This document shows, piece after piece, positions 7,472 through 20,000 of a DNA stretch of 20,000 nt. Below the pieces are notes generated by a model. The model was not told the DNA's origin and searched no databases. It worked only from the letters and a program-made list of their open reading frames with translations. A program made the translations under genes and the position numbers. The first letter of the stretch is position 1. Each line of letters begins with the position of its first letter. Source of the DNA: Neodothiora populina (lineage: Eukaryota); contig NW_027191413.1 in assembly GCF_041146345.1 (NCBI RefSeq), positions 3,020,971-3,040,970 of the forward strand, written 5' to 3'.

Positions 7472-8255
7472 TTATATCTAACGCCACGGTGATGTCGACA
7501 GCTAAGGAGTCATTGTGAGACAGAAGACAGAAAAGGTTCCCAGCATAATCTTCTTGTCACTATTTGATCAGCACCACCAATAGAGACGAGGTTTTACGGG
7601 AATGGGTTTATTGTATATGGTGAAGTTCATCTTCAAACATGGCCCTTCGAGCCTTAAGAATGAGGTCAAACAGAACTGGGGTTGAACGCTTACAGCATAT
7701 CCTCTCTAAAGCCTGTCAGCGGTTCAAATCGATGATCGCCAGCTACCGTTGCACATATAAGACTCGATACAGCGGTCGCCACCAGCCAAATTGCTGTACA
7801 TCGGATGAACATCATTTACATTTTGAGATGTACAAGTACTGTACGTTTAGGTGGTGATGACAGAACCGTGCTGTGTTGCAATAAAGAAAGCGGGGCTCGC
7901 TTCGATATCACATTACCGTGATGCGGTACATAGCCACTAAGAGCCATCGGAAGATAGCCGTGCCTAGGCATGGAATAGCAACAGATGCAACGACAACATA
8001 CAGTAATGATAACATACCTGTGCATGAGGCATCAGAATGTTTTTCCCTGGCTGGTCCACTATTGCCGTTCCTTTCTTGATTGTTGTCGCCGTTGACGCGT
8101 TAACCCCCGCTGTATAGCTCCACGGTAAGGATAAGCAACGATAAGCGCTTAAGATCGTTGACCCCGTAATTTGAGTGCAAATCATCCATACATTAGGCGG
8201 AAAAAGCCACGTCCAAATTCGCTGATCTTCATGGGTCAGGTATGGGGGTCCGCAA

Positions 8256-8696
8256 TCAAAAGCGAAACAGACGTTCATCATCCATAAATCCTCTATCGCT
8301 GACGAGAACAAGCTTCGGCAAAGCATCATCAATTGTGTGCTCAATGCGTTCGGCAGGGAAGGCCGGGTCGATGGGGGCATAGGCTGCACCCGATTTCATT
8401 ACCGCCAATGCGGCTACAACCGTGTCGACGGAGCGTTCCAGAGCTACGGCAACCACATCTCCATGGCCAATTCCTTGCTCTTCGACCAGCACATGGGCGA
8501 GACGATTTGCGAGTGTGTTGAGCGTTTGATAGTCAAGTTCTATGTGACCAGAGATTACCGCAACATGTCTAGGGTACCGCTCTGCGGCGCTCTCAAAAAG
8601 CCGTGGCAACGAAAATCCAAGCGTTGCGGGGTTATCCGTGGCGTTGAACTGGCCAATAAGGGTTTGGTGGTCTCGCGCTGAAATAGTTCCTGCCAT
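8256..8696 (-). pseudogene. N-terminal fragment of an NRPS-type adenylation domain
   Basis: Has A1-like LDYQTLNTLANRLA and A2-like MKSGAAYAPIDPAFPAER. The ORF stops after about 146 aa, before the A3 motif (YTSGSTGxPKG), which I could not find in any downstream frame. Confidence 0.85.
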
Positions 8697-9278
8697 TTTA
8701 CACAGTAGATCTTGCTAACCTTGAAGTATTCGAAACTTCTTGCTATAGGTTGGTTGGTGTACATAGCACAGCAGCGGAAGACCGTACACTTGTATATCAT
8801 GAGTACACATATCGTATGACATGCATCGCGAATCCTAGGCCTCTTGGGAAACCATAGCACCTGCCGATTGAGGCAGACTGCCGCTTTAAGGACACGGCCG
8901 TTTTAGGTATGTCACCATTTGAAGTACCTTGCCTTTTCAAACATAGTGTTGTTGTCAACATCCTGCATTTAATATCGACAAAAGAATGATTCCACCATCG
9001 AAAGGTCCGAACACGCTTGCAGAGATAAGGAAGGTCTCTTACGATGGTCCAGCTAGCATGTGGTGAGCAAAACTGGTTCGCTTCTCCATGATCAGCTACG
9101 CAACGAGTGACCCACGCCGTCAGCGGGACTACCTAGTGATGCCCTCGATAGGTGCCTATCTCAGTATATATGTGCATTCGTGCGCCTTACCTTCAGCGAA
9201 TTTTCATTGCAATATCGTTTGCCACATCAATTCTCTACTTTTCTTCGTTGACTTTCACTAAGCCTTAACTAATCTGTC

Positions 9279-13439: not shown

Positions 13440-14042
13440 TTTAGTAGTATTATCTAGTGATCGCGGTTGATTCTCATGCGAGTATGAGATGAGCACGTTT
13501 ATATATCTGCTCAGGTCTTGTGCTGATTTTACGATATTACGATTTAAACCAACATTCAAACTAGGCAAGCTTCGATAGAGCGGAACGATTGCAAGTTGCC
13601 TGCATTTTGCGCTTCTGGTCTATCTATATCTGTGCGTCTGCATGTATGAGTCTTCATGCCAATCTTGTAAAGAGGCTTGATTGGGTTGTCAAGTTTATAT
13701 GCATCGCATGTATGCTGAAATATACAGAGAGCACGGTGTAGGGCGGTCTGCGGCATCGGTCTCGATAGGAGCACAAGACTAATGGTAGGGGAGAGGTAAT
13801 GGAATGGGTAGATCTCTGTAGGGTTGCTGAGAATTGCCGTTGAATAGTCGACGCGAATTTTGTTTGAACCCGGGCCACTTCTCAGCTGCATAACAGGGTT
13901 TGACGTATTAACTCGGCGAAGCTGGTTTGTCTAACGTGTAGCTACCCACTTTGCTAGAAAAGCTTCCAAGCATCTCGGATCTATCATCTCTCTGCATATA
14001 TATCTCCCCAAAACTCCATAGAAGGCCCGGATTCGTTGTCTT

Positions 14043-16000
14043 TTAGGGTCGCTGCATGTTTAGATCACAGAACTTCCTCATGCGCTCCCACATATCGATC
14101 AGATGTCTTCTTTCACTGATGAGGTGACCCTCTCGAGGATAAGTAACCATGTCGACAGGCACATTGTTGTGAACACACGCCCGATAAAATGCTATGGCCT
14201 GCTCTAGAGGCACACGCACATCATTCTCGCCATGAAGAATCAGGATGGGGGTCTTAACATGACGCATGTGCCACAACGCACTGGCATTGCGACCATCTAA
14301 ATTCCCAATCCGATCCTTCTCGGGGCTTGTCGAGTCTTCTCCGGTCTTCACGTCCCATGGAGCACCGCCCACCATTTCGGGCTGGGTAGACCCTTCGCGT
14401 GTGGTCATCTGTGGTTGGTCGCAAGGGGGGTTTCTATCTTACTTTGGAGTCACCCGCGAGGATTTTCGATTCAGAGGAGCCATATGTGGAGCAGGTATAT
14501 CAGAATGGACCTCTATGGCAATGGGGAGCGATATATATATGGCACAAGCCCTGCTAATACTGTAACGCAAGACGTCAATACAGTCCGTGTAATCGACAGT
14601 TCCACCTCCTCCAAGAGCGTAAGCCGCATGTTTTTCACCTCTGCTACTGCCGCCACGGTAGTTGGGACAGAGAACGGCATAACCCATTGAGACTAGAACC
14701 GGAACCTCGAGACAATGACAGACAGAGAAGCCTGTGGTTATTCGCCAGTATGGCCCTCCGTGCGGTATAAGAATTGTTGCGAGTGGCCCATCTTCAGGAT
14801 TGTATGTGGACGGAACATACATCATTCCGTCTAGATGATATCCATCTACTGCGCTAGTTGAGATTGACCAGGACTTGGATATTTCCAGGGCAGCGATCCT
14901 GGAATTGTGGGCGGACAACTTAACTATACCAGCAGGCTTTGAGACAGAAAAGACCTCCTCTGGATTCGACCCATCACCTTTGCTGATCGCAACGACAGCT
15001 TTATTTCGAGTCTTGAGGACGTCAAATGATACCATCTCACACTCATCGCCAAAGACCATTGTACGAGTGCTATTACTGATTGAGTAGGACTCGTCAGTTA
15101 GGTACCTTTGGACACGGTAAGATATGCAAGATTGATTCTTCCGCATTGTTATACAACAGTGCTCCTCGTTGCCATCCTTATGCTCTACATAGCAACTGCT
15201 CTTGACATCAAGTTCGTATAACGAAAGAGAAGTCAAGATATGATTTGGGACATGACCAGCAATGAAGTAAACACCACAGTCTCCCCATGCAATCTGGCTG
15301 ATTCGACCAGGGAATTCGATGATTTTTTTCGGCTCCAGTCCAGACTTGGATGTCAGCCAGATCTCTGCACCGTAGATGCATGGAGAGTTGCAACATAGCA
15401 AAGTTCTTGCGAATCAGAGCTCCAAGTGAAATCATGCACGTGTCTGTGGTCACTAACGATGGTGTCGACTTGCCTTGTGACAATATCGACAACCCTCAGG
15501 CGGTGGTATTCTTGGTCGTGGCCCCAGATGTTCGGATCGTCTTTCGCTTTCTCCTTTGCAACCTGCTCAATTGTCTTCTCATCCGCGCTTGTGTATGCGA
15601 TACTTGTGCCGGTACAGTCCCATCGAAATTGCACAATTTGCTTTTCAAATTCTACCGGTGTTATAGGGTATGCTTCTCCACCACTGACTGACAACAGATA
15701 CACGGCAGAACTTTGCCCTGGCCGTTGTCGGTCCGATTTGAACGCGACTGTTGTTCCCGACGGAGACCACTCGGGCTGTTCGTCATTGTATAGACCCAAA
15801 GTGAACTGGCGACTGCTTTTCTCTTCGCCGACTTTGGCAATCCAGATTGAGGAAGTGGCGTTTTCGCCCTCCTTACTGTAAGCTTGCAATGCATAGGCAA
15901 TCAGGTTCCCATCAGGAGAAATTGAAATATCACGAGGAACTTGAAGGTCGGCAAGAGCCACCAAGCTCAACTCTGGCCTGTTACTTGCATCACTCCTCAT
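14043..16000 (-). pseudogene. Peptidase family S9 (S9C, acylaminoacyl-/dipeptidyl-peptidase-like) disrupted by a frameshift at about 15390 and an internal inversion at 14379-14550
   Basis: Beta-propeller repeats (ISPDG, EWSPSG, FTWSSDS), HGGPY, PNYRGGSSRG, the catalytic Asp (HGENDVRVP) and the catalytic His (YPREGH) are on the minus strand. The catalytic Ser motif GWSQGG (14413-14430) is on the plus strand. Confidence 0.9.
14379..14550 (+). other. 172-bp inverted segment of the S9 peptidase CDS, containing the nucleophile motif GWSQGG
   Basis: The plus strand reads GWVDPSRVVICGWSQGGFLSYFGVTREDFRFRGAICGAGISEWTSMAMGSDIYMAQA. Flipping it gives ...YSISR-GWVDPS...IYMAQA-EMVGGAPW... in frame with no indel. 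Confidence 0.93.
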
Positions 16001-17043
16001 TGTTCTTGTTTCGAGTGCTGGTAGGCAAGTCTTTGAGAGAGGGAACCTCAGACAGTGAAAACTGCGAGGTCCAAGGGATTGTATGCATCTGGACTGCTTT
16101 GACCAATAGCGTCAATTGTCTCCGAACTCTTCCGTGCTATCAGTTGTACTATAACCTCATCTAATTTGACTGAGATAATTAGCAACCCCCCAACTACGCA
16201 CCCCTGCTAGGATTTGCTTCGCTTCAATGTTATCACGGTAACGTTATCTACGCGAGAGTCATCTACCTTATTTTCGATTCGGCATTGTGCTTGACTACCT
16301 CGCAAGAAACGGCACTATGGGCTCTCAATTCATAGCTACACATTTGGAATGAGTCCTCGCGGGATCGCGGTCAGATGCAGGCAACGAGTCCTTGGCGGGG
16401 ATTAGGTATAGGCTTATGCGGCTCTGGCATTGTGATTGACAGCCGCAGTTGGGACGCCGCAAAGCACAATGAACAATCTGGCTCTAGATGTGGAGGGGTC
16501 AGAGATGAGGACAACCGGATAAATAGCGCAGCAGCGCCTATGTACAGTAAGGCAACAGGAAACTAATATATTGATGAAGCATCAGTACTGGTGTACCTTT
16601 CTCTGGCATGGACAGCTTATCACTGATGAGATTTACTATCGTCACCGCAGTTGCCATACCTACCCCGCACTACCTTGACTCGCTGCTGTGACATTGTTCC
16701 ACCTTCATTACAGTGTCCATGGTATGACAGGAGAGGGAAACAAGGCTGCCATTTACAAAGTACGACTTTCTGCCAACAGGTTTGTACGGCTTCCATATTC
16801 CTTTACATCTCATCGTATGTTGGATGTCGCAAAGCTACTGATACCATTGACTTGTTGGCATCGCCGCAGTTTCATTGATCCTGCTTATCCGAGGCACTTT
16901 GCATACGACTCTGCAACATCTACGTGAGACTCATCAAGTTTATGAAGACTCTGCATGATGAGATCATATTCGGACGACACCGCTTTTCGTCCGCTCTGGA
17001 CTGATATCAACGAGGCGTTGCGCACGTTCCTGGAATCACCAGC

Positions 17044-19918
17044 ATGAGCAGCAATCTAGAACGTGTAGCGCCCTCGTTCCTCCGAGATAGGCCTTATAAA
17101 GTTGTCCAGAGTCCTCCTGACTTAGCCTACTGGAGGGCGCGGATTGGTATGCTCGTGGAGAATGAGGTGGTGTTGCACAAAGATGAATTTGACAGGTACT
17201 TCCCCTACCTCAGCAATATCTGGTGGTATGTAAGGACAGGGTGGACATTTACACGAGGGGAGGACACCCCGGATAAAGAGACAACCTGGTATGACTGCAG
17301 GCTGCCTCTAGCGATGCGAAAACTCGAGGGAGAATTGTGTGACTACCATATGGAAGTGAACGAAGATCTGCGGACCGGTCGAATAGTTATAAAACGTACC
17401 GGGGACCAAAGTCTCCATACACACTCGCTAGCTGATGCTGACAAGATCGATATCGAATCGAACGATGGTCTAAGGAATCTGGTTCTATCAATGATCTGGT
17501 GTGGAACAGAGCCATGCGAGATTATGAAGATTTCCGCGAAGCAAATGTAACCGGAGAGAAGCTACTTGATGCTGGTGGTGAATATCTTACCGAAAAAATC
17601 ATCGATCGATGGTGTAGGACGTTCAGCAAATTATTTCCGAACATATGGCGTAACGGTAATAGAGCTGTATCGGATCATTTGGACACGATCAAGGCTGGCA
17701 AGGATGACTTTACAGGCTCATATGTCGAGGATACAAAACCGAGACGAGGAAGCGGGTTGAAGGATCCTGAGGGGGTACCATCGACAATTCAGCAAGCGGA
17801 ATTTCTTGTTCGGACAACCGGGGTGAAGGAGGGATACGATGTCTGTGAATCGTGTTTCGACTTCCTGACCAATCCGGCTAACACTTCTCGACTTACCGAG
17901 ATAAACACCATGGAGGGCCATCTAACCAAATGGGTCATATTGCGGATCGTTACTGAGAGCGCCAAGCAAGGTTGTCGTCTATGCCAGTTATTTCTAGTCA
18001 ATCGACCTGAAAGTCTTGGTTGTTATGGAAACGACAAGAATGAAGGTTACTACGTACGAGTACTGGCAACTAAGCAAAGGTATCTGAGACTGAGAGGAGA
18101 CAGTCTGGATTTTGACATATTCATAGTCAGTCATGCTCCTGATTTGCAAACAGTCGATAATCCATATTGGGCACCTGAGCAGAGAGACGCTTGTGTGTCT
18201 GCAAGATCTGGTACGTCTGTTGCACATTCTCAATTATATGACCAGTGGAATGATTCTTCTGTTCTAGGCGACGTAGCTGCTTCACATATCTCGTCAAGGC
18301 CGGTAGTTACCGACTCTTCGTCCGAGCGAGCTTTTTATCTCATGAACGATCAGATCAAAGACTGCCTCGAAAATCATGGCGAGCCCACAACATGCATCCA
18401 AACCAAATTGCCCTTTCGCGTGGTCGATGTCGACAACCCTCATCTCATAAAAGTTATCAATACTGAAGGGCAGACCGGGAGATATATAACTTTGAGCTAC
18501 TGCTGGGGAGCAAAAGAACAATCGATCATGCTGAAATCAAACACTATAGACGAACTCCAAAAGGCGTATCCGGTGAAAAAGCTTCCCAAAACCATCACTG
18601 ATGCGATATTGGTGACTCGAAAATTGGGCATCCGGTACCTCTGGGTGGATGTACTTTGTATCATTCAAGACGATGCGACAGACAAGAGCGAGCAGATTGC
18701 GTGCATCAAAGACATATTTGCAGGTGCATATGTTGCCATTTGCGCCGCCCGCGCCGAGTGTTACAGGGACGGTTTCTTAGGCCGCAGCACTGAAGGTCGA
18801 TTCACTGTGTCCAGGCGATACGATAAGTCGATTGCTTGTTCAACCCCAATTCCATGCAAATTTGTCGAGAGAGCCAATCTGGTCACGAGCATGGACATTA
18901 GAAGAACGGCTGTTGTCACCTAGGAGCTCGATCTTTGGTAAATCTGCATTATGTTGGGAATGCGACCATAAGCAATATATCATGCCAGACAGGATGATGG
19001 AAGAGAAGGGCATCCCGTTGAGGTTGGTCTGATCACCCGGACCACAGTTCATGGAGCCAACGCCGGTTTGTCAGACGAGGAGATGAAGACTAGACGACTT
19101 CTTTGGCCCAAGCTTGTTTCTGACTATACGTCCCGGGCTCTGACAAGTCCCAAAGATCGTCTAAGAGCCATTTCAGGGTTGGCTGCGCCTTTTCAGTCGA
19201 TCTACCAGCATTGTGAATACGTTGCGGGTCTCTGGCATGGCCCAGGGCTAGGTGGCAAGAGCTATATGCTTTCGCAACTGCTGTGGAGTGAACATGGGCG
19301 TACGAAACTTGGTGTGCACCTTCCTGTGGACGATTCTGCGCCAAGTTGGTCATGGGCATCAATCGAAACAAGCATCACATGGGGTATTTGGCAAATGAGC
19401 GATGCTATGCCTCCCGAACCGGAAGAGGACGATCCAGCAGATGTGATTGTTTGTGACATACTTAAAGTCACCAACAATGAGTACGGGGAAGTGAAAAACG
19501 AAGCGTGACACTGCAAGGTCCAACGAGATCAGCGCTTACCTATGTGCAGATGCAGCGTGACGCGCCATCACGCTGTATTCTTCATTTTGTGGAGAGTACC
19601 CACGGTGCCGAGTATGTGCATACCAGCATTGATTTGGGGTTATGTAATCTTGTTGTGGATGGGTTCACTCCGGGCTGGTTCAAAGAGGACAATATATTCC
19701 ATGGTGGCGTGCACTGCCTCACTGGGATCAAATTTGAGGTGAAGTTTCTCTTGTTGAGAAAGCGCGGAGGACTCATACTTGTCGAAGTCGATAAGCAACA
19801 GACTTACAGGCGGATAGGCATCTTTGCTTTTTTTGATCTGCAAGCTGGGAAGTCTCCGAAAGGTTGCGATACTGATGACTTGGCGACCAGGCATGCCTTC
19901 TTTGAAGACAATATCGAA
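17044..19918 (+). pseudogene. HET-domain (heterokaryon incompatibility, TOL-like) gene with an N-terminal WRKY/GCM1-like Zn domain, four frameshifts, and a 3' end truncated by the telomere
   Basis: The HET core at about 18408-18782 has LPFRVVDV, YITLSYCWG, LPKTITDAI, RYLWVDVLCIIQDD and DGFLG. It is followed by SRAWTLEERLLSPR, DYTSRALT..DRLRAISGLA, YVAGLW, APSWSWAS and GLILV...YRRIG in successive frames. Shifts fall at about 17532, 18803, 18972-19030 and 19500. Confidence 0.85.
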
Positions 19919-20000
19919 AGGGTTAGGGTTAGGGTTAGGGTTAGGGTTAGGGTTAGGGTTAGGGTTAGGGTTAGGGTTAGGGTTAGGGTTAGGGTTAGGG
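19919..20000 (+). repeat. Telomeric repeat (TTAGGG)n, right chromosome end
   Basis: AGGG at 19919-19922 is followed by 13 perfect TTAGGG copies (19923-20000) to the end of the window, with the G-rich strand running 5'->3' toward the end. Confidence 0.98.

What the first reader, a model, noticed from the sequence alone, without database searches (positions are those of the whole stretch)
17044..18782. WRKY/GCM1-like (Mutator-type) zinc domain apparently fused N-terminal to a HET cell-death domain
Seen: ORF 17044-17550 has WYDCRL-x-LCDYHMEV-x-HTHSLADAD, a C-x13-C-x25-H-x-H pattern. Adding one T to the TTT at 17531-17533 joins it to the next ORF as MKIFREANVTGEKLLDAGGEYLT, which leads through CESC...GCRLC into the HET domain. 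Known, from recall rather than a search: SPPDL..WR, F..YFP...N, YWDCRL, H.H.L...D and LEAAGG.YLT are features of fungal MULE-transposase-related WRKY-GCM1-fold proteins, and HET is a TIR-related death effector. No DDE catalytic domain or terminal inverted repeats are visible. Inference: a transposon-derived DNA-binding or decoy domain grafted onto a fungal immunity effector, analogous to integrated WRKY or BED domains in plant NLRs. I do not know this architecture as described.
Basis: partly seen in the sequence, partly recalled or inferred. Interest (0 to 1): 0.72.

Follow-up and report, generated by a model that had tools for sequence, protein, structure and literature searches.

The report
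Dead transposon-finger/HET fusion at telomere
The last gene on a fungal chromosome arm looks like the broken remains of a fusion between a transposon-derived zinc-finger module and a cell-death (HET) gene; no working copy of this design was found, so it is a suggestive relic rather than a shown new immune receptor.

Summary
Both parts are real. ORF 17044-17550 is the N-terminal WRKY-GCM1-type zinc module of fungal Mutator transposases, and its homology continues across a frame change at about 17530 into the HET frame. A 57-codon open, coding-like linker with no start codon of its own leads into a full non-NLR HET gene. It has four frame changes, all matched by a public sequencing contig that may be this DNA's source, and a telomere was added about five codons before its expected end. 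No intact fusion was found: 0 of 16 long HET relatives carry the module, and 0 of 41 module loci have HET downstream; both searches are insensitive. Best reading: the relic of one fused gene (0.55). Main rival: a neutral in-frame chimera that was never selected (0.28). The decoy role is speculation. This scan earlier noted related modules fused to Rib7 and HD enzymes on other DNA, but not to HET.

The parts
17044..17529 (+). MULE-transposase-type N-terminal WRKY-GCM1 zinc module, first part (ORF1; zinc ligands C85 at 17296, C99 at 17338, H125 at 17416, H127 at 17422). The ORF1 stop is at 17548-17550.
   Evidence: phmmer hits P0002-P0010; 2 of these 9 carry MULE/ZSWIM RNaseH-like hits; fold search top three AFT2, WRKY1, WRKY33
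17530..17534 (+). Break 1: frame change inside the module's helical extension
   Evidence: Profile continuity across it; sequence matched by contig X1; no good intron bypass
17532..17672 (+). Rest of the module (the 'LxxAGGxYL...W' helices), in the HET frame
   Evidence: BLASTP with P0004, 15/36 identical, E 1e-6; profile positions 180-215
17673..17843 (+). 57-codon linker: open in the HET frame, no in-frame ATG, coding-like, origin unknown
   Evidence: no significant likeness to the tails of other module proteins
17844..18482 (+). N-terminal part of the HET protein with CxxC and GCxLC motifs
   Evidence: A profile of 16 HET relatives starts matching at 17838; consensus
18211..18267 (+). Probable 57-nt in-frame intron (GT-AG, 4/4 donor, no canonical branch site)
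   Evidence: paralogues L005 and L006 are interrupted at about the same place; not shown by RNA
18483..18782 (+). HET domain PF06985, profile positions 1-97 of 146
18783..18820 (+). Break 2: frame change inside the HET domain
   Evidence: matched by X1
18817..18975 (+). Remainder of the HET domain (RAWTLEERLLS...LCWEC) in another frame
   Evidence: iE 1.4e-12 against the HET-relative profile
18976..19030 (+). Break 3: frame change. A 110-nt intron at 18938-19047 could bypass it but would delete the conserved WxC motif.
19031..19496 (+). HET-associated C-terminal region (W..Y..R.L, AGLW, APSWSWAS motifs)
   Evidence: iE 2e-25
19497..19919 (+). After break 4 (about 19497): last segment, with the RRIG motif, no stop codon, cut about five codons short of the paralogues' ends
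19920..20000 (+). Telomere repeats (TTAGGG)n, the end of contig C6

Best explanation
The locus is the dead remnant of one gene that encoded, in order, a Mutator-transposase-derived WRKY-GCM1 zinc module, a linker of about 57 residues and a complete non-NLR HET protein (about 940 aa without the probable intron). It lost function through four frameshifts and then lost its last few codons to telomere addition. Shown: the identity of both parts, the shared frame, the breaks and the truncation. Inferred: that the fusion was translated and kept by selection for a time. Most speculative: that the module acted as a built-in N-terminal sensor or bait gating the HET death domain. Binding or modification of the module by a foreign factor, or by a partner from an incompatible strain, would release HET oligomerisation and cell death. 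A bait role is slightly preferred over DNA tethering because the module has lost its basic insert.
For: Module homology runs across break 1 into the HET frame. The linker has no stop in 57 codons, which happens by chance 10-14% of the time in a given frame, and there is no in-frame ATG between 17514 and the HET CxxC. The linker scores as coding (0.108): 41% of 340 held-out coding windows score at or below it, and only 2% of 420 overlapping stop-free non-coding windows reach it. Both parts are complete: the module ends about where it ends in the Rib7 fusions and the HET part begins at its first conserved motif. All four zinc ligands are kept although the module's branch is 2.62 changes per column, against 0.5-1.03 for MULE-labelled rows. 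Simulated neutral drift of the 209 codons to 70% identity leaves no stop in only 2% of runs, and none is seen. Breaks are about as dense in module plus linker (1 in about 265 codons) as in the HET part (3 in about 690), which fits one shared loss of function. No other copy of the DNA and no MULE catalytic domain were found in the genome. The Cys spacing is 13 against mostly 25-37 in relatives, and the net charge of -2 is tied lowest of 28 rows.
Against: No intact two-domain homologue was found: 0 of 16 long HET relatives; 1 long hit among 5190 candidates, a RibD fusion; 0 of 41 module loci, of which only 10 non-RibD loci had 1,300 or more bases downstream. Truncated, broken module remnants lie beside unrelated genes elsewhere: upstream of NPR2 in L014 and of a PPR gene in L047, and head-to-head with a HET-ankyrin gene in L044/L045. 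The long branch could reflect an unsampled transposon family, and the tree placement is weak (79/81). An out-of-frame ATG at 17839 sits just before the CxxC. The coding score has low power: true HET exons score as low as non-coding DNA. Two of the other three HET loci found in this genome are also broken.
Confidence: 0.55

Rival explanations
1. Neutral chimera. A stand-alone module gene or a truncated Mutator element lay upstream of a HET gene. A subtelomeric deletion or insertion joined its coding tail in frame (a one-in-three chance) to the HET gene and removed the HET start. The product was never selected and both parts decayed together.
For: This also explains the coding-like linker (the tail of the upstream gene) and the missing ATG, the long branch like those of stand-alone modules P0009, L051 and L011 (2.4-3.4), and the lack of fused homologues. 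Stand-alone modules with short tails exist. PMC1805685 (passages read) describes a Podospora NWD pseudogene that lacks a start codon and is directly preceded by a transposon relic.
Against: A random junction would have to fall after the complete module and within the short leader before the first CxxC, which lies within the first 70 residues in 14 of 16 relatives. Keeping both parts whole is more expected under selection.
Confidence: 0.28
2. Two separate relics side by side: a Mutator fragment, and a HET pseudogene with its own start (for example ATG 17839 plus a fifth frameshift). The spacer is open by chance.
For: The spacer is open by chance with probability 0.10-0.14, and an ATG lies at 17839. 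Remnants lie next to unrelated genes in L014, L044 and L047.
Against: It needs the same strand, the same frame, an open spacer, a coding-like spacer and one more frameshift.
Confidence: 0.09
3. ORF1 is still alive as a 168-aa stand-alone WRKY-GCM1 protein, and break 1 freed it from the dying HET part.
For: ORF1 is open from ATG 17044 to 17550 with all four ligands and folds at mean pLDDT 77.
Against: It lacks the conserved LxxAGG helices that follow in relatives, has lost basic residues and scores low as coding DNA.
Confidence: 0.06
4. A live, intact fusion gene whose apparent breaks are assembly errors, introns or programmed frameshifts.
For: X1 may be the same sample and was laid only as a contig. 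Break 3 has a possible intron bypass.
Against: X1 agrees at every base of the gene while showing an indel elsewhere. The best bypass candidates for break 1 have 2/4 donors and no branch site, and those for break 2 delete invariant HET residues. There is no stop before the telomere.
Confidence: 0.02

Closest known systems
Insert-containing WRKY-GCM1 domains of fungal MULE transposases and their derivatives Rcs1/Aft1, Aft2 and Rbf1 (Babu et al. 2006, PMC1702500; passages and section 10 read)
   Same: C...C...HxH zinc finger with an N-terminal helical extension. Nearest sequence relatives carry MULE/RNaseH-like domains. Best fold match is AFT2 (4lmg, Z 5.1, rmsd 4.5, 103 aligned). The paper reports stand-alone copies and a fusion to isochorismatase in filamentous fungi.
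   Different: The insert is cut to 13 residues, no catalytic or SWIM domain follows, and the partner is HET. The word 'het' does not occur in that paper's main text; its supplements could not be read.
Fungal module-Rib7 (RibD_C) and module-HD fusions
   Same: The same module sits N-terminal to an unrelated host protein: P0011 and 22 of 41 loci with RibD, L041 with HD.
   Different: Those are intact; the Rib7 fusion is conserved with short branches. This one is single, broken and has a death effector as partner.
Non-NLR HET proteins such as N. crassa TOL, HET-6 and PIN-C, and P. anserina BH (PMC10197012, PMC10890737; passages read)
   Same: PF06985 in a non-NLR protein with the usual C-terminal motifs; 25-32% identical to 15 aligned relatives. 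HET is a cell-death domain remotely related to TIR (PMC4986451, passages).
   Different: It carries about 265 extra N-terminal residues with the zinc module, which none of 16 relatives has, and it is a pseudogene.
Integrated-decoy plant NLRs, e.g. RRS1-WRKY (the RRS1-R WRKY/PopP2 structure 5w3x is a weak row; the mechanism is recalled)
   Same: A WRKY-fold domain joined to an immune protein with a TIR-related domain. PMC5658179 (passages) notes that fungal NLRs may hold decoys and cites one P. anserina NLR with a C-terminal zinc finger as a personal observation.
   Different: No NB-ARC/NACHT or repeat domain here, the module is N-terminal, and no effector target or function is known.

Membership tests
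WRKY-GCM1 fold, insert-containing MULE type | Two Cys and HxH zinc ligands | tested here: met
   C85, C99, H125, H127; invariant or nearly invariant in the 10-row alignment
WRKY-GCM1 fold, insert-containing MULE type | Four-stranded sheet matching solved WRKY/AFT structures | tested here: inconclusive
   The top three VIA rows are AFT2 (Z 5.1), WRKY1 (4.6) and WRKY33 (4.5), but Z under 8 is common. Foldseek gives WRKY probability 0.98 at E 8.6e-3, none at E <= 0.001. ESM features point to GCM/FAR1/DBD_Tnp_Mut at 0.83-0.90. No Pfam hit for ORF1.
WRKY-GCM1 fold, insert-containing MULE type | Homology to the N-terminus of MULE transposases | tested here: met
WRKY-GCM1 fold, insert-containing MULE type | Zinc and DNA binding | not testable with these tools
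   Net charge -2 and the short insert argue mildly against DNA binding
Mutator-like element (MULE) | DDE catalytic domain after the zinc module | tested here: not met
   The profile match stops at position 215 of 344; no PF10551 in ORF2; none found in the genome with two queries
Mutator-like element (MULE) | Terminal inverted repeats or other copies | tested here: not met
   Only short, weak inverted repeats in 14000-20000; single copy by DNA search; a right arm could have been lost with the chromosome end
HET-domain protein (PF06985) | PF06985 over its gathering score | tested here: met
   89.9 bits against 22.5
HET-domain protein (PF06985) | Intact reading frame able to make the death domain | tested here: not met
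   Break 2 splits the domain after profile position 97; four breaks in all
HET-domain protein (PF06985) | TIR-like fold | tested here: inconclusive
   The ORF2 model has mean pLDDT 56 and lacks the domain's end; no informative match
NLR with integrated decoy | NB-ARC/NACHT plus repeat domain | tested here: not met
   Pfam finds only HET in the five gene segments
NLR with integrated decoy | Integrated domain binds a foreign effector and triggers death | not testable with these tools
   Needs an intact orthologue and bench work

The most novel reading that the evidence does not exclude
Fungi have independently built an integrated-sensor immune protein without an NLR scaffold: a transposase-derived WRKY-fold bait wired directly to a TIR-related HET death domain. 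It would trigger death when a viral, bacterial or transposon factor that targets such zinc fingers touches it. Intact orthologues would survive in sister strains or species.
Probability: 0.2. Interest if true: 0.75.

Novelty: new variant of a known kind. Interest (0 to 1): 0.36.

Why it matters
Papers read here say that the role and trigger of most non-NLR HET genes are unknown (PMC10197012, PMC10890737; passages). An intact module-HET fusion would name a candidate sensor for one of them and test whether the integrated-decoy principle of plant immunity arose in fungi from transposon parts. As it stands it is one dead copy. It adds HET to the host proteins that carry this module and shows a HET gene ending at a healed chromosome break.

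Tried and rejected
Searches for an intact fusion. ORF1 against longer proteins: 0 of 206 candidates. Alignment A1 against proteins of 607-2000 aa: 1 of 5190, a RibD fusion. ORF2 front part against proteins of 642-2000 aa: 16 of 3297, none with the module. Metagenome scan: 41 loci, none with same-strand HET. That scan used a single peptide pattern which the window's own ORF1 does not match, so it could have missed a close orthologue. One of the 10 hits (P0001, 4770 aa, a 25-residue repeat match) was dropped before aligning. ESM Atlas: no usable hit for the junction region. No RNA holder was listed; X2, probably DNA, gave two short pieces in the gene and X3 none. Linker similarity to the tail of L044 looked suggestive by eye but was not significant (P 0.056; best of 17 tails P 0.028 uncorrected). 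RIP was rejected: composite index negative in all six segments. The genome's own HD-fused module (L054) and stand-alone module (L011) are not the source: ORF1 did not find either, L054 hardly matches the module profile (iE 0.14), and L011 is 17% identical. ORF2 fold searches were uninformative. Literature searches for the architecture: HET+WRKY+fungal+transposase 0 papers; HET+domain architecture+transposase 1; HET+Mutator+fusion+transposon 2; integrated decoy+fungal+HET 2; HET+FAR1+DNA-binding+allorecognition 0. None of the passages read describes it. PMC8914235 and PMC9153377 were seen only as listings, and the library lacks most subscription journals. The scan's own notes held no look-alike sequence and no HET fusion of this kind.

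Full report
Setting. The window is the last 20 kb of contig C6 of a 24-Mb, 18-contig genome and ends in TTAGGG repeats from 19920. Neighbouring ORFs match acyltransferase, short-chain dehydrogenase, MFS, AMP-binding, alcohol dehydrogenase, fungal transcription factor and S9 peptidase families. The finding is the outermost gene.

The zinc module. ORF 17044-17550 (168 aa) has the stated C-x13-C-x25-H-x-H pattern and no Pfam hit. phmmer over 1.84 billion representatives gave 10 hits at E <= 0.001, none at 1e-10; I dropped one repeat artefact and aligned nine. Two of the nine continue into MULE/ZSWIM RNaseH-like domains. A metagenome scan gave 41 loci: 22 with a RibD-like ORF, 5 with MULE catalytic-like ORFs and one fused to HD. 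The AlphaFold model (pLDDT 77) has AFT2, WRKY1 and WRKY33 as its top three VIA rows at Z 4.5-5.1, and WRKY domains at Foldseek probability up to 0.98 but E >= 0.008. Each fold result is weak alone, but they agree with the homology. Babu et al. 2006 (PMC1702500; passages and section 10 read, supplements unavailable) define this insert-containing family and report stand-alone and isochorismatase-fused fungal forms. No catalytic domain, terminal repeats or second copy were found.

The join. A profile of 10 MULE-type rows, none from the window, matches ORF1 to position 167 and the next frame from 180 to 215; a read-through with X at about 17530 scores 108 bits against 76. After the module, 57 codons stay open up to the HET protein's first CxxC at 17844, while the other two frames have two stops each. 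Such a run is open by chance in 13.9% of resamples and in 72 of 749 overlapping upstream windows. The only in-frame ATG upstream is at 17514, inside DNA that encodes the module in the other frame. A codon model trained on 39 long ORFs from 200 kb of the same genome scores the linker like coding DNA (41st percentile of 340 coding windows; reached by 2% of 420 overlapping open non-coding windows). The model is weak, because several true HET segments score like non-coding DNA. The linker's origin is unknown.

The HET gene is dead. PF06985 matches only profile positions 1-97. A profile of 16 HET relatives follows the gene through four segments in three frames, with breaks near 18785-18820, 18975-19030 and 19497. 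Contig X1 spans 13500-19920 with no substitution and one indel, at 15323, outside the gene. It may be the source of this DNA, so it is a check on the assembly and not a second strain. Introns do not plausibly bypass breaks 1 and 2; a 110-nt candidate at break 3 would delete a nearly invariant WxC. The last segment ends in FFEDNIE and enters the telomere, where paralogues L006 and L007 end FF-x6-RVKIV-stop, so about five codons are missing. Of four HET loci found in the genome (a lower bound), L007 has a stop and frame changes, L006 has a frame change, and L005 looks intact; those two were not checked against reads. There is no RIP signature.

Was it once a selected fusion? For: both parts are whole and share a frame. 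The module keeps all ligands and has no stop although its branch is 2.62 against 0.5-1.03 for MULE-labelled rows. Neutral drift to 70% identity would leave 209 codons stop-free in 2% of 400 runs. Against: no fused relative among 16 long HET proteins, 5190 long candidates or 41 loci. Only 10 non-RibD loci had enough downstream DNA, and the scan pattern would not have matched the window's own ORF1. Broken remnants do lie beside unrelated genes, including head-to-head with a HET-ankyrin gene in L044/L045. Paoletti et al. 2007 (PMC1805685, passages) describe a startless NWD pseudogene directly behind a transposon relic. The long branch could also come from an unsampled transposon family. I put the relic of a once-functional fusion at 0.55, a neutral in-frame chimera at 0.28 and simple adjacency at 0.09.

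Mechanism, all inferred. HET is a cell-death domain remotely related to TIR, and its mode of action is unknown (PMC4986451, PMC10197012, PMC10890737; passages). An N-terminal zinc module could tether the protein to DNA or act as a bait that gates HET. The module's Cys spacing is 13 against mostly 25-37 in relatives, and its net charge is -2, tied lowest of 28 rows by a crude parse. That fits loss of DNA binding, whether as bait or by decay. Uehling et al. 2017 (PMC5658179, passages; author names of this and the other papers are recalled) raise decoy domains in fungal NLRs only as a possibility. This protein has no NLR core.

Novelty and verdict. Five literature searches and the scan's notes showed no module-HET fusion, within a library that lacks most subscription papers. 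Capture of this module by fungal host genes is known, and HET genes are highly variable and often broken. This is a new variant of a known kind, preserved as one pseudogene. Interest 0.36; 0.75 if an intact, selected orthologue with a sensor role exists (probability about 0.2).

Noticed in passing
window 19905-19930: Telomere repeats start in register with the codons for the 'RV' that begins the paralogues' terminal RVKIV motif (AGG GTT), so a telomere-like seed inside the gene may have primed healing. This is inference from L006 and L007.
   Followed up: partly
window 15323-15329: Contig X1 has one base fewer in a T7 run inside the S9 peptidase gene; probably an assembly error in the window that splits that gene.
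   Followed up: partly
L044 2318-5766 and L045 2-1845: A frameshifted, truncated Mutator module sits head-to-head, about 400 bp from a HET-ankyrin gene, in two metagenome contigs.
   Followed up: partly
L040 579-1811: The same module fused to an unidentified C-terminal alpha/beta-looking domain with no Pfam hit.
   Followed up: no
L041 2-1348: Module fused to an HD domain. The own genome's HD gene L054 carries a different, distant zinc module.
   Followed up: partly
L011 1039-2004 (G000:C18): Stand-alone, divergent copy of the module in the own genome, intact, with no Pfam hit. The own Rib7 (L010) shows no module within the fetched locus.
   Followed up: partly
L006 and L007 (G000:C15 and C12): Two more HET genes near contig ends appear broken, so 3 of the 4 HET loci found look disabled. 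This is a very small HET set compared with the average of 117 quoted for Sordariales in PMC10890737, although the count is a lower bound.
   Followed up: partly
window 7964-8714 (minus strand): AMP-binding (NRPS-like) fragment covering only profile positions 1-100 of 384 in one ORF; may be another subtelomeric relic.
   Followed up: no
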